A stretch of 64,000 nucleotides of DNA from a virus, in UHGV virus genome UHGV-0039337; one strand, written 5' to 3'. A program made the translations under genes and the position numbers. Under the pieces are notes generated by a model, which saw only the letters and a program-made list of their open reading frames with translations, was not told the origin of the DNA and did no database searches. Each line of letters starts with the position of its first letter. Within the stretch, counting starts at the first letter, position 1. This document shows positions 25,858 through 64,000 of this stretch, in pieces.

Positions 25858-26253
25858 TTATTCCTTTCTATATTCTTTACATTCTTGATTATTATATTCT
25901 AATATTTCTCTTAATATTGATCTATGACATATAATATCATTTTTTTCATAACAGATAAGGAATATAGTATATCCTTCATTATTTAAATCTATTATTTCTT
26001 TTAATCCATCAATGAAAAATGGATTGTCAAATGACTCATCTATATATTTTTGTCTATACTCTTTCCAATCAATACTACCATCTTTATACTTGGCTAATGT
26101 AAGTTCCGTGGGCGCAAGTTGAGGCGCCCACTCTATATTATATTTTTTTACGTTTATAGTATTTCTAGGTTTCCATCTAGTTATTAAAAATTTCTTAGTT
26201 GTATCATCATTTGGTAGATTTTTTAAGTTAGACAAATAAGTTGTGTATATCAT
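25858..26253 (-). CDS. DUF488-family protein
   Basis: LITRWKPRN...WAPQLAPTELTLAKYKDGSIDWKEYRQKY...IFLICYEKNDIICHRSILREIL matches the DUF488 pattern (W.P.LaPS..L...y..g.i.W.eF...Y..e ... C.E......CHR). Confidence 0.5.
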   Translation of the reverse strand: MIYTTYLSNLKNLPNDDTTKKFLITRWKPRNTINVKKYNIEWAPQLAPTELTLAKYKDGSIDWKEYRQKYIDESFDNPFFIDGLKEIIDLNNEGYTIFLICYEKNDIICHRSILREILEYNNQECKEYRKE

Positions 26254-26549
26254 TAATGACAGCCACCATTACAAACTCCATTACAATCTCTACTACATGT
26301 ATGTGCTTTTGATTCATTTAAGTTATGAGAAAACTTTTCTTTTCTTGAATCATACTTTTCTTGCATCATACTTCCAGTAGAACCATAACCATCTGCACCT
26401 CTTGTAGTTTCATCTAATTCATCTACTATAAAAGGTTGTGCTTCAAGTACTGGACATAATACTAATTGCGCAATTTTAGCATATTTCTTTAATACAAATG
26501 GTTCTGTTCCTATATTTTCTAGTTCAATACCTATTTCTCCTCTATATTT
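26253..26549 (-). CDS. dut: dUTPase exon 2 (motifs III C-terminal half, IV and V)
   Basis: Begins KYRGEIGIELENIG, then ...AQLVLCP, then TRGADGYGSTG (motif V). The TTG used by the ORF caller is in fact the last codon of the intron, ending in omega-G. Confidence 0.7.
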   Translation of the reverse strand, partial: KYRGEIGIELENIGTEPFVLKKYAKIAQLVLCPVLEAQPFIVDELDETTRGADGYGSTGSMMQEKYDSRKEKFSHNLNESKAHTCSRDCNGVCNGGCH

Positions 26550-27401
26550 CAATTTGTTATGTATAGGCTCTTTATCCTATACTCTCCTACTTTCGTAGAA
26601 GTATCGGACTATATCATTAACTCTCATATAGAGAGCAGAGCGGGGCGCTCGTGTCGGTTTTATTGTTTACCTTACTCAACCGTTAGTCTCTGAACCTTCC
26701 GTATACTTTATAGGCTTCTACGGCTTGGCTGCTGATTAGCATATCTTTCGACTTAGCCTTCCAGCAATTCACCCCGTTTAAAGACTCCAAATTTATTTTG
26801 CTTTATTATATTTTCCTAAAATGTCATGTAATTTGGAATGCTTTGATCTTGATAATATAATTAAATTAGTAGGATCATTATTTATTTTATTTTCATCTAT
26901 ATGATGTACATCATAATTTGGATTTAAATACCATTTGCCATCTATTAATACTGCACAAGATTCAGTAAGTAAATACTGTTCTGCAATTAGCCTATGCTCT
27001 CTAATTCTTCCGAATTTATTTGCAAAAGGATGATCGGGAACATAAACATATATGTAATCATTATACAGTATTTTATTTTGAGTAAAACTAGCATTCAATG
27101 GACCTTTTAATCCATATTGATGATTTCCTTCTCCTTTCATATAATTACTTTTATTGATAATATTACACTCTTCTGAACAAGTTATCATATCTGGATGTTT
27201 TAGTCTTTTAAGTCTTGAAGGTTTAACATAAAATTTTGTGCCGCATATACAACATGAAACATTTGGTTTTTTATTCCATTTATTATACATGTCAGCACAC
27301 GCATGACTACAAACATTTTTTCTATGCTTTTTTATATTATCTGTTTCGTATTCTTCATTACAATAATCGCAATGTCTTAACAATTAAGCGACATCTCCCT
27401 T
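26550..27401 (-). mobile_element. Group I intron (852 nt) in dut with an HNH homing endonuclease gene
   Basis: Splits dUTPase motif III (GTIDS | KYRGEI). Exon 1 ends in U and the intron ends in G. The GC-rich 3' core contains canonical R (GGUUCAGAGACUAAC) and S (AAUGAUAUAGUCCGA) elements forming P7, GACUA paired with UAGUC. Confidence 0.7.
26793..27383 (-). CDS. Intron-encoded HNH homing endonuclease
   Basis: Carries DVHHIDENKINNDPTNLIILSRSKHSKLH (HNH) plus N-terminal Cys-rich zinc fingers. It is in frame with dut exon 1, separated only by TAA, and the ORF caller used a TTG start. Confidence 0.6.
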   Translation of the reverse strand: MLRHCDYCNEEYETDNIKKHRKNVCSHACADMYNKWNKKPNVSCCICGTKFYVKPSRLKRLKHPDMITCSEECNIINKSNYMKGEGNHQYGLKGPLNASFTQNKILYNDYIYVYVPDHPFANKFGRIREHRLIAEQYLLTESCAVLIDGKWYLNPNYDVHHIDENKINNDPTNLIILSRSKHSKLHDILGKYNKAK

Positions 27402-27740
27402 AGAGTCTATAGTACCTGGAGCATTAGGTATTCTTATTTTAGTTTTTAAACCATTACCACTTGTAGGTCTAGCTTGCAATTCTGTGCCTAATGGTATAGA
27501 TGATGCCCAACCAGTGCATGCTAATACTGTTTCTCCTGGCATTATTATCCATGAGGAAACTCCTTTTGCAAAATCTTTATTATCCTCATATGGTTTTTTG
27601 TCTTCATTGAGTCTTTTTAATGCTATTGCAAACACATCCATTCCGCTATCTCCTGGATGTGCATATTTTAATTCTATAGCATCTTCTCTTAATCTTTTTA
27701 CTTTAATAGGCACTTGCGTATAAAAATTCAGTTTAATCAC
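27402..27740 (-). CDS. dut: dUTPase exon 1 (motifs I, II and the N-terminal half of III)
   Basis: Contains HPGDSGMDVFA (motif I), ARPTSGNGLK (motif II-like) and ends GTIDS at the 5' splice site. Confidence 0.7.
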
Positions 27741-51595: not shown

Positions 51596-52537
51596 CGATT
51601 GTACCGTTTCTTTCGAAATACTTTAACATCGTTTTATACGATCGGTCTAGACTATATCTTCAACTCATATTCTTTTACCGAATATGAGTTGCTTGGTACT
51701 TCCGGTCAGGATTTTCACCTAATTACCCGTACTCTACTCGGTTATTCTCTTAGATATTTCTTCTAAGATATCCTTTCGATAGTCGTTTGACTTTATTTTA
51801 TATTATATAGCTTCATAAGTTATTATATAGTTTTTTAATTTTCCTCTACTTGGCATAGGTTTTTTACCCTCTGCATATAATCCTAAAACCGTTATATTTC
51901 CCGCTGAATATCCAAAGTATCTTGCTAATTCTGATAGTGATACGAATTCTTTAATAAAGTTTCCTTCTCTATCATAAAGGTATACATGCTTATTGCAAGT
52001 ACAACAATCATCACCGTATGCTTGCTGTGTGTTTTCGGATATTGTGCCCCATTTTAGGTTTGTATAATGATTATTTAATTTATTGTTATCTAAATGTAAT
52101 ACTATAGGGTAATCATTTGGATTTTCTAAATAAGTCATAGCGACTAATCTATGCACCCTAAAATGTCTTCTTATTCCATCTTTACATACTAACAATAAAT
52201 CTTCATAACCATCTTTCATTATTCTTGTCGATAAAAACCTTTTTAATATTTTTGAATATATTTGCCCATCTTCGGTTATACTATAATAATCTTGTTTTAT
52301 ATTGAAGCAATCCAAATCTTTTATAAAAATCATCTCCTAATAATTTTTATAAGAAATGGCATAATATAAAATCTTAGCACAGGATTAGCATACCTATATG
52401 GCTTTAGCCTCCCCTGTTAGCACACTCATTAATAACCATTTCCTGTTATTACTAATATACGCTGAGTGTACACCCTAGTTTTTAGGTTCACCAAGTTTTT
52501 CATTATATATCACTATATAAAGGCGGCCGATATTTTA
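51596..52537 (-). mobile_element. Group I intron (942 nt) in the ribonucleotide reductase gene, with an HNH_3-type homing endonuclease
   Basis: Splits ...IGQKGRRG | ALMISMDVSHPDI (conserved RRGA.M...HPDI). Exon 1 ends in U and the intron ends in G. The core has R (GUCAAACGACUAUCG) and S (AAGAUAUAGUCUAGACC) elements. Confidence 0.7.
51803..52333 (-). CDS. Intron-encoded HNH_3-family homing endonuclease
   Basis: VLHLDNNKLNNHYTNLKWGTISEN is an HNH_3 motif. Confidence 0.6.
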   Translation of the reverse strand: MIFIKDLDCFNIKQDYYSITEDGQIYSKILKRFLSTRIMKDGYEDLLLVCKDGIRRHFRVHRLVAMTYLENPNDYPIVLHLDNNKLNNHYTNLKWGTISENTQQAYGDDCCTCNKHVYLYDREGNFIKEFVSLSELARYFGYSAGNITVLGLYAEGKKPMPSRGKLKNYIITYEAI

Positions 52538-55715: not shown

Positions 55716-56291
55716 TTATTCTATTAAAGATATAATTTGATTATTCATATTTCTATATTGATATATATTGCTTCTTGTCATGTTGTCTAAAGTATATAAA
55801 GTTACTTTTAAATCATCAAATGTAGTATATTCTAAATCGTCAATTTTCGGTATTTCTATTATTTCGTCTTCGTCATTCATTTCATAGAAATCTGCTTCGT
55901 TTCCTTCCCAAAAACATGAATTATCTATATCTTTGTCGTTCATATATACATGTATTTCTCCTTCAGCGTAATCTATATTAGTTAATCTTTGTTCCTCGGA
56001 AAGCGCTATTAATCCTCTATCTCTATCTAGATTATCTTCTAATGGTTTAAAACCTAATTGTTCATAAACATATTGTCTATCTTCTATATTTACTCTAGCA
56101 CCTATGTTTTCTAATGCTTTTATAATATTAGTTTCTAGCACTCTTGTTTTTGCAATAGAGTTATATGACCTTATAAAATCTTGAGCTTTGTAATATGCAG
56201 ATCTAGAATAAGCACTCCAATGATAATATACGTTTATGATAGGTGCTTCTCCTCTATTTTTATATATATTCATAATTAATCTTTGTCCCAT
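55716..56291 (-). CDS. Hypothetical protein
   Basis: 191-aa ORF. Confidence 0.45.
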   Translation of the reverse strand: MGQRLIMNIYKNRGEAPIINVYYHWSAYSRSAYYKAQDFIRSYNSIAKTRVLETNIIKALENIGARVNIEDRQYVYEQLGFKPLEDNLDRDRGLIALSEEQRLTNIDYAEGEIHVYMNDKDIDNSCFWEGNEADFYEMNDEDEIIEIPKIDDLEYTTFDDLKVTLYTLDNMTRSNIYQYRNMNNQIISLIE

Positions 56292-56336
56292 AAGTTCACC
56301 TCTAAAAGAAATAAGCCTATAAACATAGGCTCATTA

Positions 56337-57545
56337 TTATTCTGTTATTGTTTCATCTAACATAGCTTCAAGTTTTTCCATTTCTTGTGCTTCACTTTCT
56401 GCTTGTTCTTTTAATTGCTTTACTTCATCTTCAGGTAAATCTTCTACAGCATAATTTCCTTCTACTTTAGATTTAAGATATTCAAAATATTCTGGATGTG
56501 CTTCTATATAGTTCATGAAAGCTGCTAGACCATTCCATTTAGCTACTGTACCATCTGGTAAAGTTCTTTCATTACCTTTTTCTTTTTCTCCAATTGCATT
56601 GTATTCTCTTATCCAAGCGCCTTTCTTTTCAACTATACCTGAATTAAATACTGCATCTATTATTTCTGGATTTCTATCTATACCACTTCCATATTTTACA
56701 TAGTATCCTATCTTAACATATGTATTTCTATCAGTGATACAATGGTTTTTAGTTACTTTTAAGTCTATTGTCATATATTGATCTTTTACGCTATATAGCA
56801 TATCTTTATTATCCATAAAACCTTTAGATAATTCTAAAGTAAGAACATTATTGTATCTTATTTGTTTACCGCCACCTATAAGTGCACCGGCTCTAGGACC
56901 TCCACCTATGTTGGTACTATAATGTTGAATAGTAATTAATGCAGTTCCTGAAGAGGCTATTATAGGTATAACCTTTCTCATAAATTTACTATTAACTCTA
57001 GCTTGTAATGCAACAGTATCATCTTTCATATCATTTTGAAACTCTTTAGTAGGAGTTAAACATTTTAGTGAGTTTATTACTATCATATCTACTCCAGTAT
57101 AAGCCATTCTTATAACATAATCCAGAACTTCTTCTGCTGTCATATCGTCAGTATTCATAAATATGAATCTGTCTTTTAAATCTTCATCGGTTATACCAAA
57201 CATTTTAATAGAAGTAGATTCTAATGAATTTTCACTTTCTATCCAACATCCAGTAAAATCAGGATCATTTTTAAGGTTATGCGCAATAGTTTCCAGCATC
57301 AGCATAGTTTTACCACTGTCAGGATTTCCTGCTACTAGAGTATATTTACTTCTAGGTATACCTCCACCTGTAGCTTCATTAACTCTCAATGATGGTGTAG
57401 GTATATATTCTATTACTAATTTTTCTGCTATGTCTTCATCATTAAGAGTACCTATGACTGTAGTACCTGCAGCTTTATTTATATCTTTAATAGCTTCTCC
57501 TATCAGTTTTTTTCTTTCTGCTAGGCTTTTACGTTTTATCGCCAT
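56337..57545 (-). CDS. RecA/UvsX-family recombinase-like ATPase
   Basis: EATGGGIPRSKYTLVAGNPDSGKTMLMLETIA is a RecA Walker A context, MIVINSLKCLTP is RecA-like (vvDSvaaL.P), and the C-terminal tail is acidic. Confidence 0.65.
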   Translation of the reverse strand: MAIKRKSLAERKKLIGEAIKDINKAAGTTVIGTLNDEDIAEKLVIEYIPTPSLRVNEATGGGIPRSKYTLVAGNPDSGKTMLMLETIAHNLKNDPDFTGCWIESENSLESTSIKMFGITDEDLKDRFIFMNTDDMTAEEVLDYVIRMAYTGVDMIVINSLKCLTPTKEFQNDMKDDTVALQARVNSKFMRKVIPIIASSGTALITIQHYSTNIGGGPRAGALIGGGKQIRYNNVLTLELSKGFMDNKDMLYSVKDQYMTIDLKVTKNHCITDRNTYVKIGYYVKYGSGIDRNPEIIDAVFNSGIVEKKGAWIREYNAIGEKEKGNERTLPDGTVAKWNGLAAFMNYIEAHPEYFEYLKSKVEGNYAVEDLPEDEVKQLKEQAESEAQEMEKLEAMLDETITE

Positions 57546-57562
57546 ATAATCTCTCCTTTCAA

Positions 57563-57910
57563 TTAATTAATTTTATTTATATAATCATTTAATGATTTTA
57601 TAAGCTCGTCTATTTCTTTTGTAAGAGATTCAGGTGGCGCTGAATTAAAACTTTTATAATAACTATCTACAATATTTTTTTTACGTTGTTCTAATATATA
57701 TACATTAGCTCTAAAAATTGGTTTTGCTGCATTCATATTTACGCTTTTATCTTCTGTCTCTATATATTGTATTAATTCTTCAAGGAAAAGAGCTACAACA
57801 TTACGTACAGCATCTTTTCCTTCATACATCGAAGAAGAAGCAGCTACGCCTATAAAATTAGTTATAGCTGCTCTTAATGATTCTTGTTCATTTGTATATG
57901 GTTTTGCCAC
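57563..57910 (-). CDS. Hypothetical protein
   Basis: 115-aa ORF. Confidence 0.4.
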   Translation of the reverse strand: MAKPYTNEQESLRAAITNFIGVAASSSMYEGKDAVRNVVALFLEELIQYIETEDKSVNMNAAKPIFRANVYILEQRKKNIVDSYYKSFNSAPPESLTKEIDELIKSLNDYINKIN

Positions 57911-60342
57911 TATTCCTCTACCTCTTCTATTTGCTCTTCAGGTAAACAAGTAACAGCTACTACATAGTCGTCTTTATCTAAGTTAATTAATTTAGTGCCT
58001 GTAGTATGTCTACTAGAATGAGCAATATTATTCGCATCTATTCTTATAGTTTTGCCATTAGCTGTAGCTATAAGTATATTAGCATTATCTAATATAAACG
58101 CAGATACAACAGGACCTGTTTTATCACTTACTTTATGACAGAAAATACCTTTGCATCCTCTAGACTTAGAAGCAAATTCTTCTTCATTAGTTGCTTTAGC
58201 TATACCATATTTAGTTACAGTAACTACTTCTGTATTAGAATGCATAGATAATATACCTATTACTTCGTCACCTTCACTTAGTTTTATACCTTTAACACCT
58301 CTAGCTGATCTACCACTAGGTCTTACTGTATTAGAGTTGAATCTAGTAGATAAACTATTAGCAGTAAGTATCATAACTTCTTCGTCGTCTTTAGCTAATA
58401 AAGCTCCTACTACTTCATCATCATCTACTAATCCCATTACTTTAGTAACGTTAAATCTATTAGATAATTGTGCTAATGCTAAACGTTTTATTTGTCCTTT
58501 TTTACTTACAAGAACAAGATAGCGTTCTTTGTCATTAAGATTAGTAGCTAATGTTTTAATAGGATACTCTCCTTCTTCCATAGATACAAAGTTAGCTAAA
58601 TTTTTACCACGAGAGGACTTATTTACTTTAGGTATTTTATATGCTTTAACTGTATGACATCTACCTGTATTAGTTATAAATAATAAGTCATCTTTACTGT
58701 TAATAGTAAATAAATCTACTACTAATTCATCGTCTTTAGTATCGGCTCCTTTAGAACCTTTACCAGCTCTTCTTTGTTTATTATATTCATTAGTAGCTAC
58801 AGATTTTATATTTTGATCACTTGTAACAGTAACTATTAATTCTTCATCTTTAATTAGATCTACTAATTCTATTTCATCTTCTAGCTCTATTGCTGTACGT
58901 CTTTCATCTCCATATTTATTTTTCATTTCGGTAAATTCTTCTATTAATTGTTTTAATATTACTTCGTCGTCTTTTGTTAGGTTTATTAAATGAGGTAGTT
59001 GTTCATACATATTAGATAAATCTGTTTCTACTTTTTCTTCAGATACTTTAGACAATCTTGATATTTTCATATCATATACATATTTAGCTTGTTCTTCTTC
59101 TAAGTCAAGTTCATCTTGTAATGATTGTATAGGATTATCTTCTTCTCTTATAATATGAATAACTTTATCTATATTTTCTATAGCTTTTTGTACGCCTTCT
59201 AATATTAATATATTATGATTTAATTTAGTTAAATCATATTGAGAGCGTCTGCGTACTATTTCCATACTGTGTATAATAAATTGTTCAAGACAATCAAGTA
59301 TGCCGAATTCTTTAGGCATTCCGTCTAATAATGCTTTAACATTATAATTTATAGATATTTGTAAATCTGTTTTAGATAATAAATGTTTTATTACTAAATC
59401 TGGATTAGCACTTTTTTTAAGTTTAATTTGTATATTACAGTTTTCTGTACGTTTAGTTACATCTAAAACTTCACGTATGCCTTCTACTTTATTATCTATA
59501 CGTAAATCATCTATTTTGTTTACTAGTTTTAATTTATTTACTTGGTATGGTAGTTCTGTAATTCTAATTATTTTATTATGTCTTTTATCTTCTTCTATAT
59601 CGTATTTACATCTTAAAATTACTTTTCCTTTACCTTCGCTTATTATTTTAAGCCATTCTTTATTAGAAGTTATTATTCCCCCATCTGGAAAATCTGGGCC
59701 TTTTATTATTTTAGCTATATCACTACATTCATACTCTTCATCTTTTAATGCTTTATCTATCATAAATAATATCGCATCATATATTTCTGTTAAATTATGA
59801 GGTGGTACATAAGTAGACATAGACACGGCTATACCGTTTGTTCCATTAGCTAAAAAGTTAGGCAATAAAGATGGTAACGTCATAGGTTCTTTTAAAGTAT
59901 TGTCAAAGTTATCCATATAATTAACAGTATCTTTTTCTATATCTTTACATACAGCATCTCCATATTTAGATAAATGACATGTAGTATATCTATAAGCGGC
60001 AGCTTTAAATCCATCTCTATTACCAAATGAAGTAGTTGTATCTATTAAAGGATATCTCATTACCCAATTTTGTCCTAATCTGGTAAGCGCATCATATAAT
60101 GAGATATCGCCGTGTGGATATGTCGTTGCTAATACTGAACCTACTACTTTTGCACATTTTTTTTCTGGATCTGTACTTTTCATTCCATGAGTATACATAT
60201 CCCATATTATTTTTCTACCTGATGGTTTTAATCCCGTATTTACATCAGGTATTGCTCTATCTCCTATAACAGCTAATGCATAAGCTTTATATCTAGGAGC
60301 TAGAGCGTCGCCTACTGATTTTTCTATAATATGTTCAGCCAC
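57910..60342 (-). CDS. Type II topoisomerase subunit A (GyrA/ParC-like)
   Basis: YKAYALAVIGDRAIPDVNTGLKPSGRKIIWDMY matches the GyrA N-terminus (Yam..i..RAlPDvrDGLKPv.RR.l). The length is 810 aa. Confidence 0.8.
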   Translation of the reverse strand: MAEHIIEKSVGDALAPRYKAYALAVIGDRAIPDVNTGLKPSGRKIIWDMYTHGMKSTDPEKKCAKVVGSVLATTYPHGDISLYDALTRLGQNWVMRYPLIDTTTSFGNRDGFKAAAYRYTTCHLSKYGDAVCKDIEKDTVNYMDNFDNTLKEPMTLPSLLPNFLANGTNGIAVSMSTYVPPHNLTEIYDAILFMIDKALKDEEYECSDIAKIIKGPDFPDGGIITSNKEWLKIISEGKGKVILRCKYDIEEDKRHNKIIRITELPYQVNKLKLVNKIDDLRIDNKVEGIREVLDVTKRTENCNIQIKLKKSANPDLVIKHLLSKTDLQISINYNVKALLDGMPKEFGILDCLEQFIIHSMEIVRRRSQYDLTKLNHNILILEGVQKAIENIDKVIHIIREEDNPIQSLQDELDLEEEQAKYVYDMKISRLSKVSEEKVETDLSNMYEQLPHLINLTKDDEVILKQLIEEFTEMKNKYGDERRTAIELEDEIELVDLIKDEELIVTVTSDQNIKSVATNEYNKQRRAGKGSKGADTKDDELVVDLFTINSKDDLLFITNTGRCHTVKAYKIPKVNKSSRGKNLANFVSMEEGEYPIKTLATNLNDKERYLVLVSKKGQIKRLALAQLSNRFNVTKVMGLVDDDEVVGALLAKDDEEVMILTANSLSTRFNSNTVRPSGRSARGVKGIKLSEGDEVIGILSMHSNTEVVTVTKYGIAKATNEEEFASKSRGCKGIFCHKVSDKTGPVVSAFILDNANILIATANGKTIRIDANNIAHSSRHTTGTKLINLDKDDYVVAVTCLPEEQIEEVEE

Positions 60343-60356
60343 GCTATCTTCCTCCC

Positions 60357-60755
60357 CTATAATATCGTATAATCTTCTTCAGACATTATATATTGTCTTT
60401 TTTCTGTATTCATTACTTTGCTATTCATACACATAGAAACTATTTTATTAGCTTCTTCTGCGTCTTCAATTGTTATTTTAATTAGTGTTCTATGTTCTGG
60501 ATTCATAGTTGAATCCCATAAACCTTCTGCTGATAATTCACCTAATCCTTTTAAATAAGTTATATTTAATTTTTTATTAGGATATTGTTGTTTAATAGAA
60601 TTTAATTCAGCATCATCTATAGCATATAACGTAGTATTTTTATCTACTATAATCTTATATAATGGTGGGCATGATAAATATAAATAACCTTCTTCTATTA
60701 TAGGTCTAAAATATCTATAAAATAATGTTATATACAAAGTAGCTATATGATAACC
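60357..60755 (-). CDS. Type II topoisomerase subunit B (GyrB/ParE-like), exon 3 (C-terminal)
   Basis: Begins GYHIATLYITLFYRYF and carries GYLYLSCPPLYKI (the GyrB PPLYK motif). Confidence 0.7.
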   Translation of the reverse strand, partial: GYHIATLYITLFYRYFRPIIEEGYLYLSCPPLYKIIVDKNTTLYAIDDAELNSIKQQYPNKKLNITYLKGLGELSAEGLWDSTMNPEHRTLIKITIEDAEEANKIVSMCMNSKVMNTEKRQYIMSEEDYTIL

Positions 60756-62013
60756 CGATTACACCCTCGGTTTCCCGATATTTATCAGGGGTCTAGACTA
60801 TACCTTCGCCATTTCAGGCGCACTGAACGTAGTCGTTGGACTCCTCCTGTTCGGAGTCGGCTGCTGATTTTCCATTAATTCACCCTTAGCACGTATTTAA
60901 TAATACGCTTTTGTCTCAGCTTAGGTAATCCTCAATACTTTTTTCTGCTTTCGCAACATTCATATAAGTTTGTTTCATCTTATATTGTAGTGATTAAGGC
61001 TTTAGGAATTCCCAGCAAGCGGTCAGTGTAATAATCCTATAGGTTATTATTCCCTATAAGACGACTATATTTATAAATTAATTATATTTTAAATAGAGAT
61101 TTAAATAACGTTCAAATTTGCGTTCCATATATATAGTACAATCTAAATATAACCAACTCATTATTTGATATACTTGATTATCACCACATAATCTTAAACT
61201 TTGAACGTTTCCGTCTCCGTTTTTATGTCTTTTTTGTAATTTTACATTCTCTTTATTTAAAATTGTTTTAAGCGTTTCTAAAAATTCTGTAGTACCTAAT
61301 ATACTAATATCATAAGTATGATATTTTTTATCTCCTGATATTGACAGAGATCCATCTCCATCAAAATATCCTCTAATAAAATGTCTTTGTAATTCTTTTG
61401 GTACTATATCCTCTGAAGGAAATAAACAATGATTGGTTTTATCAAGGCTAAAACCTTTATTAACTAAATCTTGATACATCTTTTTGCTAGTTATAACCAT
61501 TTTTGACTCTCTTGTAATACAATCAAAACTTTTATTGTAATGTTCATAATCTCTTATTGGATACGTAGAGTCTATATCTTTTTTAAATTTTTCTATCATA
61601 TTACGATCTTTTGTGGCTAACGTTAATCCTATTTCATTCCCTCTATTTGTTATATATCCATCAGCCATTAAAAAACCCAACCAATAAGCTTTATGTTCTG
61701 TATCAATAACTTCAAAGTAATTATCATTTACTTTATTTCTTCTTAAATCATCAGGACTTTTCTTTTGATATAGTCCTGCTTTAATTAAAACTGGATAAAT
61801 AGTTTGAGGTTTTCTATCTTTTAACGATTCTTTATTCTCACAAATCCATTTTACGCTATGTCCCTCTTTATATTTATTGCATATCCATTTTTTATCTTCT
61901 TCAGAAAATGATTTTCTTATTCTTTTTGTCAATATATTCACCCCAATATTTAGTTTCTTTATCTAAATATTACGGTGAACGTAGACGCTTATAATAATTA
62001 TTTATAAATCTTA
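60756..62013 (-). mobile_element. Group I intron (1258 nt) in gyrB-like, with a LAGLIDADG homing endonuclease
   Basis: Splits DADVD | GYHIATL (GyrB Toprim DADVDG.HI.tLLLTFF). Exon ends in U and the intron ends in G. The core has R (GUCCAACGACUAC) and S (AGGUAUAGUCUAGACC) elements. Confidence 0.7.
61078..61941 (-). CDS. Intron-encoded double-motif LAGLIDADG homing endonuclease
   Basis: KAYWLGFLMADGYI and RHFIRGYFDGDGSL. Confidence 0.7.
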   Translation of the reverse strand: MNILTKRIRKSFSEEDKKWICNKYKEGHSVKWICENKESLKDRKPQTIYPVLIKAGLYQKKSPDDLRRNKVNDNYFEVIDTEHKAYWLGFLMADGYITNRGNEIGLTLATKDRNMIEKFKKDIDSTYPIRDYEHYNKSFDCITRESKMVITSKKMYQDLVNKGFSLDKTNHCLFPSEDIVPKELQRHFIRGYFDGDGSLSISGDKKYHTYDISILGTTEFLETLKTILNKENVKLQKRHKNGDGNVQSLRLCGDNQVYQIMSWLYLDCTIYMERKFERYLNLYLKYN

Positions 62014-63202
62014 ATCAACATCGGCATCGCTCATTATTATTATCTTATGATATCGTAAGTTATCTATATTAAAATCTTCACCTATACCACACTCTAAACT
62101 ATATAATATATCTTTTAATTTATCAGATGATAATACTTTATCTAAAGTCATTTCTTCTACATTTGGTATTTTCCCGAATACAGGTAATATTGCTTGAGTA
62201 TTCTTGTCACATGCGGTAGTTGCTGTAGAAGCTGCACTATCACCTTCAACTAAAAATATTTCGCAAGCTTCAGGATCTTTACTAGCACATTTTACTAATT
62301 TTTCAACTTTTTTATTAGCGAAATTTTTATTCTTTCTTGCAGCTTCTTTTGCTTTATAGGCGGCTTCTCTGATCTTGTTTGATTCAATAACTTTATTAAG
62401 TATATTATCTTTATCATTCGGTAGTTTATCAAATTGATCTTCACAAAACTCCTTTACTTCACTATACAATATGCTTGCTATTACAGGCATATTTAAATAA
62501 TCTTTTCCTTGTCCTATATAGTTAGGATCTGGTACCTTGACACTAACTACTGCTATTATACCTTCACGTGTGTCTTCTGCTGTTAATTGTGTTTTAGATT
62601 TAGGATATTCATTTTCAAAGCAATCTTTAACAGCTGTAGCTATACCACGTTTAAATCCTGTTATATTAGAAGATTTACCATCGGTATTTATAACATTATT
62701 AGTAAACGCTATTATATTATCACTATAAGCCTGAGTCCAAGCAAAAGCTACAGATATTTCACACGATTTATCATTATCCATTTCAACTGATTTAGTTAAG
62801 AACCAAGGATCATGAATACTTTCTTTGTTAGCTGTAAGTTCTTCAACATATGCTTTAACACCCTCTGGATAATTATAGATTTCATGTATGTTATAGTCCC
62901 CATATTCTATATCTACTTTAATAGTAAGTTCAGGATTAAGATAGCATATTTGTTTCATTCTGCTATTAATAGCTGGTATATTAAAATCATCTTTATCAGC
63001 CCATATTTCAGGATCTGGTTCACATTGTATAAGAGTCATAGTAAAGTCTTCACGTGATATTTCTTCTACTTCGTGTAATTTATGAGTCACTAATCCTTGT
63101 TCAAATTCCATATCATATACTTTACCACCAGTATATATTTCAACATGGAACCATTTAGATAAGAAGTTTATACATGATGCTCCTACGCCATTTACAATAG
63201 TT
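62014..63202 (-). CDS. GyrB/ParE-like subunit B, exon 2 (transducer and Toprim)
   Basis: The in-frame extension upstream of the called Met gives TIVNGVGASCINFLSKWFHVEIYTGGKVYD (GyrB HGVGvSvVNALS region). Further on are FLVEGDSAAST and IMSDADVD (Toprim). Confidence 0.65.
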
Positions 63203-63868
63203 CACATAGGTTCGCTATTCCTATGCCGCACTATTACGTGCAGCCTCTAGTTTTCACTAGGGATCGGACTATATCATCACCCTTTAATAAGGGGTTCTCC
63301 ATTTCCATTTAATAGGTAATTAAGAGCCTTATTACGGCTCACCTAACCGCTTGGCTGTACTCTACTCACTTCTGTTACTATCAGAATCGCTTTCGATAGT
63401 CTCTGAACTTTCATTTATTCCATTTAAATAACCAAATTCTTGTTCTTTTTCTCTTCTAAAATCAATACACATCTGTTTAGCTTGTTCATAACCATATTTT
63501 TTACACGATCTTGATATTCTACATTTTTTATGTTCATTATCTTTTATTTCTGCAATCCAAGAATCTCTACTTTTATCATATCTTACACCTTTTATTCCGC
63601 TTGTGTTACATTCTCTTAATGATGTATTTTTTAAATTTTCGTGTCTTGTTGTTATTCTTAAATTGTTTTTACGATTATCCAGACCGTTATGATTTAAATG
63701 ATCTACAACAATGTCGTAACCTTCTACGTCTAATATTAATCTGTGCAAATATATTGGTTATATAAAATAAATGTTTAGCTGCTGATTGCCATATGCTTAT
63801 GCACTTAGGTTTCCAGCAATTAAAAGAATTTTTCGATACACATTACTGCGTAAAGGGACTAAATAGTT
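63203..63868 (-). mobile_element. Group I intron (about 666 nt) in the gyrB-like ATPase-domain region, with an HNH-AP2 homing endonuclease
   Basis: The core has R (GUUCAGAGACUAUCG) and S (GAUAUAGUCCGAUCC) elements. It separates ...FEEGVKSAGL from (T)IVNGVGAS. The exact junction is ambiguous because AACUAUU occurs at both boundaries. Confidence 0.55.
63362..63748 (-). CDS. Intron-encoded HNH endonuclease with an AP2-like DNA-binding domain
   Basis: VDHLNHNGLDNRKNNLRITTRHEN is the HNH motif, and GIKGVRYDKSRDSWIAEI is AP2-like. Confidence 0.6.
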   Translation of the reverse strand: MHRLILDVEGYDIVVDHLNHNGLDNRKNNLRITTRHENLKNTSLRECNTSGIKGVRYDKSRDSWIAEIKDNEHKKCRISRSCKKYGYEQAKQMCIDFRREKEQEFGYLNGINESSETIESDSDSNRSE

Positions 63869-64000
63869 AATCCAGCTGATTTAACACCTTCTTCAAATTT
63901 AGTACCAGCTTTTAATCTAGACATACATAATTCAGCTATGGTACATCCTGGTATTTCATCTGATTCTTCTGTAGGTAACGCACCTGCGCTATCTGTTACT
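63869..64000 (-). CDS. GyrB/ParE-like subunit B, exon 1 (partial, continues beyond the window)
   Basis: The reading frame gives ...EIPGCTIAELCMSRLKAGTKFEEGVKSAGL, matching the GyrB GHKL ATPase region (S.aEvimt.LHAGGKFd...YKvSGGLHGVG). Confidence 0.5.

What the first reader, a model, noticed from the sequence alone, without database searches (positions are those of the whole stretch)
63203..63868. Second intron in the same gyrB-like gene (ATPase domain) with an HNH-AP2 endonuclease; the splice junction is ambiguous because of a 7-nt repeat
Upstream of the transducer exon, the frame gives ...TIVNGVGASCINFLS (GyrB HGVGvSVVNALS). The window-end ORF gives ...KAGTKFEEGVKSAGL (GyrB LHAGGKFd..YKvSGGL). 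Between them is a 666-nt element with R (GUUCAGAGACUAUCG) and S (GAUAUAGUCCGAUCC) elements and an HNH-AP2 ORF. AACUAUU is present at both ends. The U/G rules plus frame conservation favour GGAUU|...G|AACUAUU, giving AGL-TIV-NGVG, but one alternative is possible. Two independent introns in one topoisomerase gene is rare.
Basis: partly seen in the sequence, partly recalled or inferred. Interest (0 to 1): 0.6.

Follow-up and report, generated by a model that had tools for sequence, protein, structure and literature searches.

The report
Group I intron in phage gyrB
A self-splicing group I intron of a common phage type interrupts the ATP-binding motif of a jumbo phage's gyrase B gene, but its true ends differ from those first proposed and its homing-endonuclease gene has lost its front half, so it is an ordinary, decaying mobile intron in a new host gene.

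Summary
On the minus strand a group I intron with an HNH-AP2 ORF splits the ATPase domain of a gyrB-like gene, and a second intron (LAGLIDADG ORF) splits the Toprim domain.

The favoured splice junction is wrong. An intron-less syntenic relative reads ...GCTGGAT|TAAATGG.... More than 100 uninterrupted homologues read KSAGL|NGVGAS, never AGL-TIV-NGVG.

The intron is therefore window 63869..63195 (675 nt), not 63868..63203. Only these ends give a U·G pair at the 5' splice site in P1, a terminal G, and a 6-bp P10. Both AACUAUU copies lie inside the intron, and they do not co-vary in relatives.

The fold (P1-P10, with P7.1/P7.2) is supported by covariation against nine phage introns. Rfam sees only two sub-threshold half-hits, because the ORF splits the ribozyme.

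Relatives carry the same intron at the same site as a ~1,020-nt element with a 234-258-aa HNH-AP2 gene. The window copy has a clean 348-nt deletion that removed the ribosome-binding site, the ATG and about 107 codons.

gyrB in this phage clade is an intron hotspot with at least four sites.

Verdict: a new member of a known kind; modest interest.

The parts
63870..64000 (-). gyrB exon 1, 3' part. It runs off the window; the full exon is L001 4876..5242. It ends ...GCU GGA U.
   Evidence: Translation. L001 shows the complete N-terminus with no further intron upstream. Last exon base from the intron-less allele.
63195..63869 (-). Group I intron, 675 nt, from 5'-UAACUAUUUAGUCC... to ...GUGAACUAUUG-3'. 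It sits after the first base of the Leu codon U|UA.
   Evidence: Exact excision restores the sequence of intron-less L002. Rfam RF00028 gives half-hits of 41.5 and 36.4 bits. Covariation. The same ends occur in L016, L017 and L019.
63856..63865 (-). Internal guide sequence UAUUUAGUCC. GUCC pairs with exon GGAU (P1, with U·G at the splice site). UAUUUA pairs with 3' exon UAAAUG (P10).
   Evidence: Read directly from the sequence. The Rfam alignment places the model's splice-site U on the first U of GGAUU.
63838..63851 (-). P2 hairpin, ACGCA-GUAA-UGUGU.
   Evidence: 4 of 5 pairs show compensatory changes; 90% of cells paired.
63823..63828 (-). P3 5' strand, UUCUUU. It pairs with GGAGAA at 63300..63295.
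   Evidence: 6/6 pairs in all 10 introns, with 9 different sequences.
63780..63818 (-). P4-P5-P5a-P4' (the P and Q elements): UGCUGG ... UCAGCA.
63412..63773 (-). P6 (CAUUUAUU / AAUAAAUG). Its loop holds the ORF remnant.
   Evidence: all 8 pairs show compensatory changes.
63753..63754 (-). Scar of a 348-nt internal deletion relative to the full-length intron of L019. The deletion removed the AAAGGAGG ribosome-binding site, the ATG and about 107 codons.
   Evidence: Global alignment: WIN 1-116 matches L019 1-116, and WIN 117-675 matches L019 465-1023. The breakpoints are flanked by a short A/T-rich repeat (microhomology).
63362..63748 (-). 5'-truncated HNH-AP2 homing-endonuclease ORF (128 codons from a UUG, no ribosome-binding site). 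Its last ~17 codons overlap P6', P7 and P7.1.
   Evidence: Pfam and PHROG matches. 126/129 residues identical to the C-terminal part of the 236-aa L019 protein. The family profile matches I-HmuI (PDB 1u3e) residues 49-120.
63396..63403 (-). P7 5' strand, G-A(bulge)-GACUAU, within the R element. It pairs with AUAGUCC at 63272..63266 (S element) and forms the guanosine-binding helix.
   Evidence: 95.7% of cells paired; G-C to A-U exchange at the outer pair.
63313..63386 (-). Peripheral helices P7.1 and P7.2, lying between P7 and P3'. This position is the mark of subgroup IA.
   Evidence: P7.2a has compensatory changes. P7.1 is poorly aligned, so its support is weak.
63280..63294 (-). P8, a short CCC/GGG stem. 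Its register is uncertain.
63205..63260 (-). P9, P9.1 and P9.2 hairpins.
   Evidence: P9.1 92% and P9.2 91% of cells paired, both with compensatory changes.
63195..63204 (-). Conserved 3' tail UGAACUAUUG, ending in the terminal G (63195). It contains the second AACUAUU copy.
   Evidence: The same tail ends related introns in Vibrio phage nrdB (L004, L005) and, with variation, in seven other introns.
62014..63194 (-). gyrB exon 2 (UAAAUGG... to ...GAUGUUGAU): the rest of the ATPase domain, the transducer and the first half of Toprim.
   Evidence: Pfam DNA_gyraseB and Toprim. Junctions.
60756..62013 (-). The other intron, with a LAGLIDADG ORF at 61941..61078. It is context for the claim of two introns in one gene.
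   Evidence: Homologues are continuous across DADVD|GYHI. P/Q/R/S-like elements are visible by eye in the sequence printed. There is no Rfam hit.
60357..60755 (-). gyrB exon 3 (GGUUAUCAU... to the stop codon).
   Evidence: Pfam DNA_gyraseB_C.

Best explanation
Window 63869..63195 (minus strand) is a 675-nt self-splicing group I intron of the phage IA-like lineage. It is inserted after the first base of the Leu codon in the GyrB ATP-lid motif (K-S-A-G-L|N-G-V-G).

Proposed splicing steps:
1. The guide sequence UAUUUAGUCC pairs with exon GGAU to form P1, with U·G at the cleavage site.
2. An exogenous guanosine bound in P7 attacks after GGAU.
3. The same guide then pairs with 3' exon UAAAUG (P10).
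4. The terminal G (63195) docks in P7, and the exons are ligated to ...GCU GGA UUA AAU GGC... = AGLNGVG.

The ORF in the P6 loop is what remains of a 236-aa HNH-AP2 homing endonuclease. A 348-nt deletion removed its ribosome-binding site, start codon and about 107 N-terminal codons. This copy is therefore most likely still spliced but no longer mobile on its own. It also leaves the gene without the endonuclease's target site.

Shown here: the intron boundaries, the fold and its covariation, homology to other phage introns, the deletion, and the presence of the same intron in divergent gyrB genes.

Inferred: actual splicing, loss of endonuclease activity, and homing as the means of spread.
For: **Boundaries**
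- Intron-less syntenic L002 reads AAATCAGCTGGAT|TAAATGGTGTAGGAGC. Removing 63869..63195 reproduces this apart from one synonymous base.
- Of the 120 best GyrB homologues (up to 94% identity), all of those where the motif was located read GL|(N/H)G.G with no insertion.
- Only this cut has U before the 5' site and G before the 3' site.
- P1 and P10 together give 10 contiguous pairs with the ligated exons.

**Ribozyme**
- RF00028 half-hits at E 4e-9 and 1.4e-7. The first aligns the model's splice-site U·G to GGAU.
- The mini-intron folds with z = -3.1.
- On an alignment with 9 phage introns, 81.2% of cells are paired, against 63.7% after shuffling and about 40% after sliding.
- 48 pairs carry compensatory changes (31 after shuffling), and 0/500 shuffles reach any of the five measures.
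- P3 is 6/6 paired in all 10 sequences.
- GC rises to 42% over the core, against about 28% background.

**Kinship**
- 71-79% identity to introns in Vibrio phage nrdB, SEP1 endolysin (annotated as a joined CDS) and AR9 RNA polymerase beta' (joined CDS). In total 379 phage records match.

**Same intron at the same site in three further gyrB clades** (L019, L017, L016)
- These copies are 1005-1023 nt and carry 234-258-aa HNH-AP2 ORFs.
- Ribozyme identity is 88-98%, while flanking exons are 66-92% identical.

**Deletion**
- One 348-nt block is missing, and the remaining 128 codons are 126/129 identical to L019.
Against: - No RNA data, so splicing itself is not shown.
- Neither Rfam half-hit reaches the gathering score of 50. 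Wider scans found nothing.
- P8, P9.0, P9 and P7.1 are weakly supported in the alignment (42-67% of cells paired).
- The ORF remnant keeps every invariant HNH residue and the AP2 domain, has no frameshift or stop, and could start at UUG, so loss of activity is an inference.
- dN/dS of 0.15 against a 77%-identical relative shows past constraint, and does not exclude present function.
- The covariation alignment was built by me from trimmed introns, and its structure was derived from the window sequence. That favours the structure in the slide control.
Confidence: 0.9

Rival explanations
1. One reading: the intron is 63868..63203, spliced as GGAUU|...G|AACUAUU, and gives a GyrB with a three-residue TIV insertion in the ATP lid.
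For: It keeps the reading frame, ends the 5' exon in U and ends the intron in G.
Against: - No homologue has TIV.
- The intron-less allele lacks the 9 nt.
- The splice-site U would pair with A rather than G, and no P10 forms.
- It cuts inside the tail UGAACUAUUG, which is conserved in related introns of unrelated genes.
- In L017 and L016 one or other repeat copy differs (AACUGUU, AACAUUU), yet the ends GGAU|UAAC and UUG|UAAAUGG are kept.
Confidence: 0.01
2. The element no longer splices. gyrB in this phage is a broken gene or a set of fragments, and the phage relies on host gyrase or on separately translated pieces.
For: - There is no RNA evidence.
- The endonuclease gene is already decaying.
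- Rfam does not reach threshold.
- Split topoisomerase genes exist in T4-like phages (own knowledge: genes 39 and 60).
Against: - All core helices, the bulged-A P7, the guide sequence and the terminal G are intact. The ribozyme is 97-98% identical to L019, against 90-92% for the flanking exons.
- The 130 amino acids before and the ~290 after the intron-1 site are nearly identical to the intact L002 protein.
- Exon 2 has no start codon or ribosome-binding site at its 5' end, and the break lies inside the ATP-lid motif.
- The arrangement recurs in 8 contigs.
Confidence: 0.06
3. The intron splices and is still mobile from this genome. The 128-aa HNH-AP2 protein is made from the UUG at 63748 and still cleaves intron-less gyrB alleles, or it has taken a new role such as maturase or DNA-binding regulator.
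For: - The HNH core (HRLI, DH, N..N residues) and the AP2 domain are complete.
- There is no frameshift or stop in 128 codons.
- Pfam reports the same partial HNH_3 match (profile positions 19-45) in the full-length relatives, so the catalytic module was not touched by the deletion.
Against: - The AAAGGAGG ribosome-binding site and the ATG are gone, while neighbouring genes use strong ribosome-binding sites (read).
- All ten aligned homologues, and the three same-site relatives, keep an N-terminal region of 45-110 aa.
- 126/129 identity to L019 means the deletion is too recent for decay to show, so an intact frame says little.
Confidence: 0.15

Closest known systems
Phage group I introns with an HNH ORF: Vibrio phage K470 / 1.161.O nrdB intron (L004, L005) and Staphylococcus phage phiIBB-SEP1 endolysin intron (L008, annotated joined CDS)
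   Same: - 71-79% nucleotide identity over the ribozyme halves.
- The same helices, with covariation.
- An HNH ORF just upstream of the R element.
- The same 3' tail ...UGAACUAUUG in the nrdB introns.
   Different: The host gene, and therefore the guide sequence, differ. Those ORFs (165-170 aa) were not seen to carry an AP2 domain here (not tested). The window copy has a deleted ORF.
The same-site gyrB introns of L019/L020, L017 and L016 (metagenomic jumbo-phage contigs, unannotated)
   Same: Identical insertion site and ends (GGAU|UAAC ... UUG|UAAAUGG). Ribozyme 88-98% identical. The same HNH-AP2 protein family.
   Different: They are 1005-1023 nt and carry a complete 234-258-aa ORF with ribosome-binding site and ATG. 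Their gyrB has no Toprim-site intron.
Bacillus phage SPO1 DNA-polymerase intron and its HNH endonuclease I-HmuI (PDB 1u3e)
   Same: The protein-family profile matches I-HmuI residues 49-120 at E 2.6e-5. Both are phage group I introns encoding an HNH enzyme (the latter from own knowledge).
   Different: I-HmuI has a helix-turn-helix C-terminal DNA-binding part, not AP2 (own knowledge). The window ORF lacks the region corresponding to I-HmuI's N-terminal ~48 residues.
T4 td / nrdB / nrdD introns (subgroup IA2; own knowledge)
   Same: Self-splicing phage introns in nucleotide- or DNA-metabolism genes, with the ORF looped out of the core. Endonuclease genes that have decayed (the nrdB intron's I-TevIII in T4) are a known stage.
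   Different: Different endonuclease families for td and nrdD (GIY-YIG). No sequence comparison was made here. Subgroup membership of the window intron was not tested with subgroup models.
Group I introns of gut jumbo ('Jug') phages (PMC12880540)
   Same: Many introns per genome, essential genes split into two or three pieces, HNH the commonest endonuclease, and splicing confirmed by metatranscriptomes for about half.
   Different: Those genomes are 360-402 kb and the genes named are terL, nrdD and DNA polymerase. Their topoisomerase IV is listed there as a conserved single-copy gene, not as split.
HNH-AP2 homing endonucleases (Magnani et al. 2004, Plant Cell; recalled, not read here)
   Same: An HNH nuclease fused to an AP2 DNA-binding domain in phage and cyanobacterial mobile elements.
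   Different: This is only a lead from memory. No member of that set was compared here.

Membership tests
Group I intron (Rfam RF00028) | P1 formed by the 5' exon end and an internal guide sequence, with a U·G wobble pair at the 5' splice site | tested here: met
   GGAU / GUCC, extended by UAA/UUA. The Rfam alignment puts the model's splice-site U on the first U of GGAUU. The position agrees with the intron-less allele.
Group I intron (Rfam RF00028) | Terminal guanosine as the last intron base, and P10 pairing of the guide with the 3' exon | tested here: met
   The intron ends ...UAUUG (63195). UAAAUG pairs with UAUUUA, 6 bp.
Group I intron (Rfam RF00028) | Conserved core: P3-P8 and P4-P6 domains with the P3/P7 pseudoknot, supported by covariation | tested here: met
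   81.2% of cells paired, 48 of 75 pairs with compensatory changes, 0/500 shuffles as high. P3 100%, P4 91.5%, P6 86.5%, P7 95.7%.
Group I intron (Rfam RF00028) | P7 guanosine-binding helix with a bulged A followed by a G-C pair | tested here: met
   G-A(bulge)-GACUAU / AUAGUCC at 63403..63396 and 63272..63266. The inner pairs are invariant in 10 introns.
Group I intron (Rfam RF00028) | Score at or above Rfam's gathering threshold (50 bits) | tested here: inconclusive
   Two separate half-hits of 41.5 and 36.4 bits (E 4e-9 and 1.4e-7), because a 346-nt ORF loop splits the model. Nothing in wider scans. Annotated relatives also score only 25-34 bits. An ORF-deleted construct could not be submitted.
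Group I intron (Rfam RF00028) | GTP-dependent self-splicing | not testable with these tools
   Needs in vitro transcription and splicing, or RNA reads.
Subgroup IA (IA2-like phage introns) | Extra helices P7.1/P7.2 between P7 and P3' | tested here: met
   About 95 nt (63395..63301) lie between P7 and P3'. They contain two hairpins, and P7.2a shows compensatory changes. P7.1 is poorly aligned.
Subgroup IA (IA2-like phage introns) | Best match to a subgroup-specific covariance model | not tested
   No subgroup models are available in the tools.
HNH (His-Me finger) homing endonuclease, Pfam HNH_3 | Beta-beta-alpha-metal core with the catalytic His and the Asn residues | tested here: met
   HRLI, DH, N, LDNR and NL columns are invariant across 10 homologues and present in the window ORF. 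HNH_3 scores 22.5 bits against a 24.8 cut-off. phrog_99 matches at E 5.7e-24.
HNH (His-Me finger) homing endonuclease, Pfam HNH_3 | A complete gene: translation signals and the N-terminal region present in all relatives | tested here: not met
   A 348-nt deletion removed the ribosome-binding site, the ATG and about 107 codons. It is therefore filed as a remnant, not as a functional member.
AP2 DNA-binding domain (PF00847) | Pfam score above the gathering cut-off | tested here: met
   51.6 bits against 33.3, profile positions 1-53 of 54. PDB AP2 domains are matched by the family profile.
Mobile (homing) intron | Same element at the same site in divergent host genes, more conserved than the exons, with intron-less alleles in relatives | tested here: met
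   L019, L017 and L016: ribozyme 88-98% identical against exons 66-92%. Intron-less L002 and more than 100 uninterrupted homologues.
Mobile (homing) intron | Endonuclease cleavage of the intron-less target and gene conversion | not testable with these tools
   Needs a cleavage assay or a mixed infection.

The most novel reading that the evidence does not exclude
gyrB of this clade of gut jumbo phages is a battleground with at least four intron sites (GGL|NG, LVEG|DS, DADVD|G, KGL|G). The endonuclease-less intron kept here would act as immunity: it occupies the target, so that HNH-AP2 endonucleases of co-infecting relatives (such as L019) cannot cut this phage's gyrase gene. This would make intron carriage a determinant of phage-phage competition. 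A less likely variant is that the 128-aa HNH-AP2 remnant is still made and has a new role.
Probability: 0.2. Interest if true: 0.45.

Novelty: new member of a known kind. Interest (0 to 1): 0.3.

Why it matters
- It corrects the gene model. The spliced GyrB has the canonical ATP-lid sequence AGLNGVG, not a three-residue insertion.
- It shows that default Rfam annotation misses every intron in this 64-kb window, so the phage's gyrase would be called as fragments.
- It documents gyrB as an intron hotspot in an uncultivated clade of jumbo phages of about 220-280 kb.
- It provides a clean, datable snapshot of the homing cycle. The same intron is seen with an intact endonuclease gene in relatives, and here with a single fresh 348-nt deletion.
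- None of this changes what is known about how group I introns work.

Tried and rejected
- **Rfam, wide scans.** An E-value scan of 56000-64000 and a gathering scan of the whole window found nothing. Only a 751-nt scan gave the two half-hits.
- **Megablast against phages.** Only 36-47-nt hits.
- **IMG/VR scan with the GyrB N-terminus.** No relatives. The JGI metagenome and GTDB scans were not used, because all relatives came from ENA/Logan.
- **My first P3 guess** (CUUUU / GAAAG just after P7) was dropped when relatives showed the real P3' lies before P8.
- **P0122 (132 aa) as a naturally short endonuclease.** Rejected: in L015 the in-frame upstream codons encode the usual N-terminal region.
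- **L007 (702 bp, nearest HNH-AP2 relative at first).** Too short to show its host gene.
- **A function for the AACUAUU repeat.** Rejected as unsupported:
  - the 3' copy is part of a tail conserved in related introns of other genes;
  - the 5' copy is P1 and guide sequence;
  - in L017 and L016 one copy differs;
  - the chance expectation for such a match between the two 15-nt ends is about 0.012.
- **Literature searches** for group I introns in gyrB or phage topoisomerase genes found no direct report.
- **Intein, group II intron, plain insertion.** Excluded by in-frame stops, the ribozyme core and the precise excision.

Full report
**What is in the sequence.** The gene lies on the minus strand. 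Reading from 64000 downwards, the frame gives ...KAGTKFEEGVKSAGL, then stops. Coding resumes near 63194 with NGVGASCINFLS.... Pfam finds DNA_gyraseB and Toprim in 63201..62014 and DNA_gyraseB_C in 60737..60360. A gyrA-like gene follows at 60342..57910. Between the two coding parts lie:
- the R element GUUCAGAGACUAUCG (63408..63394);
- the S element GAUAUAGUCCGAUCC (63275..63261);
- AACUAUU at 63868..63862 and at 63202..63196;
- an ORF at 63748..63362 with an AP2 domain (51.6 bits) and an HNH_3 core (22.5 bits).

**The junction.** I noticed a second possibility, GGAU|UAAC...UAUUG|UAAAUGG, which predicts AGLNGVG. Three independent lines decide for the second.
- Homologues. A search of 5.8 billion proteins returned uninterrupted GyrB proteins up to 94% identical. 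All of those in which the motif was located read KSAGL|NGVGAS or the equivalent, with no inserted residues.
- An intron-less allele. Contig L002 is a syntenic relative with the same flanking genes (SSB, PARG-like, gyrA, recA-like). Its DNA reads AAATCAGCTGGAT|TAAATGGTGTAGGAGC. The window's exons match it, apart from one synonymous C/T, once exactly 63869..63195 is removed.
- RNA logic. GGAU pairs with GUCC of the guide sequence, placing the invariant U·G at the cut. The intron ends in G. The guide's UAUUUA pairs with the 3' exon UAAAUG. The ligated exons therefore pair with UAUUUAGUCC over ten contiguous positions. Rfam's own alignment puts the model's splice-site U on the first U of GGAUU.

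A shared UAA at both ends allows four cut positions that give the same mRNA. Only one of them has U before the 5' site and G before the 3' site.

The intron is therefore 675 nt, 63869..63195. Both AACUAUU copies are intron sequence.

**The repeat.** The 3' copy belongs to a tail, UGAAC..UUG. This tail ends related introns in quite different genes: Vibrio phage nrdB introns end ...CUGAACUAUUG|GGAG, and seven other introns carry variants. The 5' copy is made of the P1 extension, the P1 loop and the guide sequence. Introns in other genes do not have it. Among the same-site introns, L017 has AACUGUU at the 3' end and L016 has AACAUUU at the 5' end. The two copies therefore do not co-vary. A shared 7-mer between two 15-nt ends of this composition is expected about 1.2% of the time. 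I treat it as coincidence.

**Is it a group I intron?**
- Rfam finds nothing in wide scans.
- On 63150..63900 alone it gives two RF00028 half-hits: 63879..63660 (41.5 bits, E 4e-9) and 63439..63245 (36.4 bits, E 1.4e-7). The ORF in the P6 loop separates them.
- blastn links the ribozyme halves to 379 phage records. These include introns in:
  - Vibrio phage nrdB;
  - Staphylococcus phage SEP1 endolysin and Bacillus phage AR9 RNA polymerase beta', both annotated as joined CDS;
  - phiKZ-like phage SL2;
  - polA of Av-05 and PBES02.
- I trimmed the ORFs out, aligned ten introns (A3) and wrote the window's helices onto the alignment. Overall, 81.2% of cells pair, against 63.7% after shuffling and 38-42% after sliding. 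48 of 75 pairs carry compensatory changes, and no shuffle of 500 reaches any of the five measures.
- P3 (UUCUUU/GGAGAA) is fully paired in all ten introns, with nine different sequences. P2, P6, P9.1 and P9.2 co-vary strongly. P7 has the bulged A and invariant inner pairs.
- P8, P9, P9.0 and P7.1 are weaker, partly because of alignment.
- Two hairpins between P7 and P3' (P7.1, P7.2) point to subgroup IA. I could not test subgroup models.
- The ORF-less construct folds with z = -3.1. GC rises to 42% over the core.

**The ORF is a remnant.** The closest proteins at first (P0121, 174 aa, 77% identical) carry 46 more N-terminal residues. The window's in-frame codons before the UUG (P-I-Y) still match them.

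A search with exon 1 then found short ORFs ending at the same place in three further gyrB clades:
- ...KSAGLTI* at 94% and 89% identity;
- ...KTGGLTISPFMQ* at 57%;
- ...KSAGLTFSPFIQ* at about 50%.

Their contigs (L019/L020, L017, L016) carry the same intron at the same site. There it is 1023, 1020 and 1005 nt long and holds HNH-AP2 ORFs of 236, 234 and 258 aa. In L019 the ORF is preceded by AAAGGAGG and starts at ATG.

The window intron aligns to L019's as positions 1-116 and 465-1023. One 348-nt block is missing, flanked by a short A/T-rich repeat (microhomology), with the scar at window 63754/63753. The block held the ribosome-binding site, the ATG and about 107 codons. The remaining 128 codons are 126/129 identical to L019's.

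Two findings that might suggest present function are uninformative because the deletion is recent. One is the intact frame. The other is dN/dS of 0.15 against P0121.

The catalytic HNH residues and the AP2 domain survive. The family profile matches I-HmuI residues 49-120. Residual activity cannot be excluded, but I think it unlikely (about 0.15).

**Mobility.** Ribozyme identity to the window is 97-98% (L019), 93.5% (L017) and 88-89.5% (L016). The flanking exons are 90-92%, 66-74% and 68-79% identical respectively. An element better conserved than its host gene, at one precise site in divergent genes, with intron-less alleles among close relatives, is the signature of homing. Cleavage itself is untested.

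**The 'two introns, rare' claim.**
- The second intron is real in the sense that uninterrupted homologues read DADVD|GYHIATLYITLFYR across 62013..60756. P/Q/R/S-like elements are visible by eye in the sequence, although Rfam gives no hit.
- The two introns are independent. L019, L017 and L016 have only the ATPase-site intron. Ten truncated homologues end at the Toprim DAD motif (seven at DADVD or just short of it, three at ADADKQ) with an unbroken ATP lid.
- The clade has at least four gyrB intron sites:
  - GGL|NG;
  - LVEG|DS (L014, L015, with HNH-AP2-like ORFs);
  - DADVD|G;
  - KGL|G.
- The window itself holds another intron in a dUTPase-like gene.
- Published gut jumbo phages average 18.5 group I introns per genome (PMC12880540).
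- I found no paper describing a group I intron in gyrB. The host gene and site may therefore be new, but the phenomenon is not.

**Beyond the window.** L001, a 270-kb contig with 15 mismatches over the 7 kb it shares with the window, supplies the rest of exon 1 (LSKIKKPKMVKK...). That sequence is collinear with intact L002, so there is no further intron upstream.

**Verdict.** This is an ordinary self-splicing phage group I intron in a host gene and site not previously described. Its boundaries are corrected by 1 nt at the 5' end and 8 nt at the 3' end, and it carries a freshly truncated HNH-AP2 endonuclease gene. It is a new member of a known kind, with interest about 0.3.

Noticed in passing
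window 62013..60756 (-): The other gyrB intron (LAGLIDADG ORF 61941..61078) has P/Q/R/S-like elements visible by eye near 61020..60760, and homologues are continuous across it. Rfam RF00028 nevertheless gives no hit even at E<=1 on a 1.4-kb scan.
   Followed up: partly
window ~27383..26553 (-): A further group I intron candidate splits a dUTPase-like gene (exon ORFs 27740..27384 and 26552..26253). It has an HNH ORF at 27383..26793, followed by a compact core with GAAUUGCUGGAAGG, AAUCAGCAGCC, GGUUCAGAGACUAACG and GAUAUAGUCCGAUAC.
   Followed up: partly
window 51658..51649 (-): Another S-element-like GATATAGTCT. Four such matches occur in the window against 0.5 expected. It may mark a fourth intron.
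   Followed up: no
L014 2553..3625 and L015 (related gyrB genes): Relatives carry an intron with an HNH-AP2-like ORF (P0123, P0122) at a different gyrB site, after LVEG of the Toprim EGDSA motif. Other homologues stop at KGL|G. Counting these, gyrB in this clade has at least four intron sites, all in the most conserved motifs.
   Followed up: partly
L002 3001..4959 compared with window exons: The GyrB of the intron-less relative is nearly identical to the window's through the ATPase and transducer domains. It diverges sharply from about KNK(N/T) onward (Toprim and C-terminus). This is a mosaic, suggesting recombination or co-conversion linked to the Toprim-site intron.
   Followed up: no
whole window: An Rfam scan at gathering thresholds reports nothing in 64 kb. 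Standard annotation would miss every intron here and call the interrupted genes as fragments.
   Followed up: yes
window 63204..63200 and 63408..63404 (-): UGAAC in the conserved 3' tail is complementary to GUUCA at the start of the R element. The tail is conserved across related introns. Whether this pairing ever forms is unknown.
   Followed up: no
L007 1..160: In the 702-bp contig carrying the 174-aa HNH-AP2 relative, the 160 nt upstream are the end of another ORF rather than the intron's 5' half. That copy therefore has a different or larger loop content.
   Followed up: no
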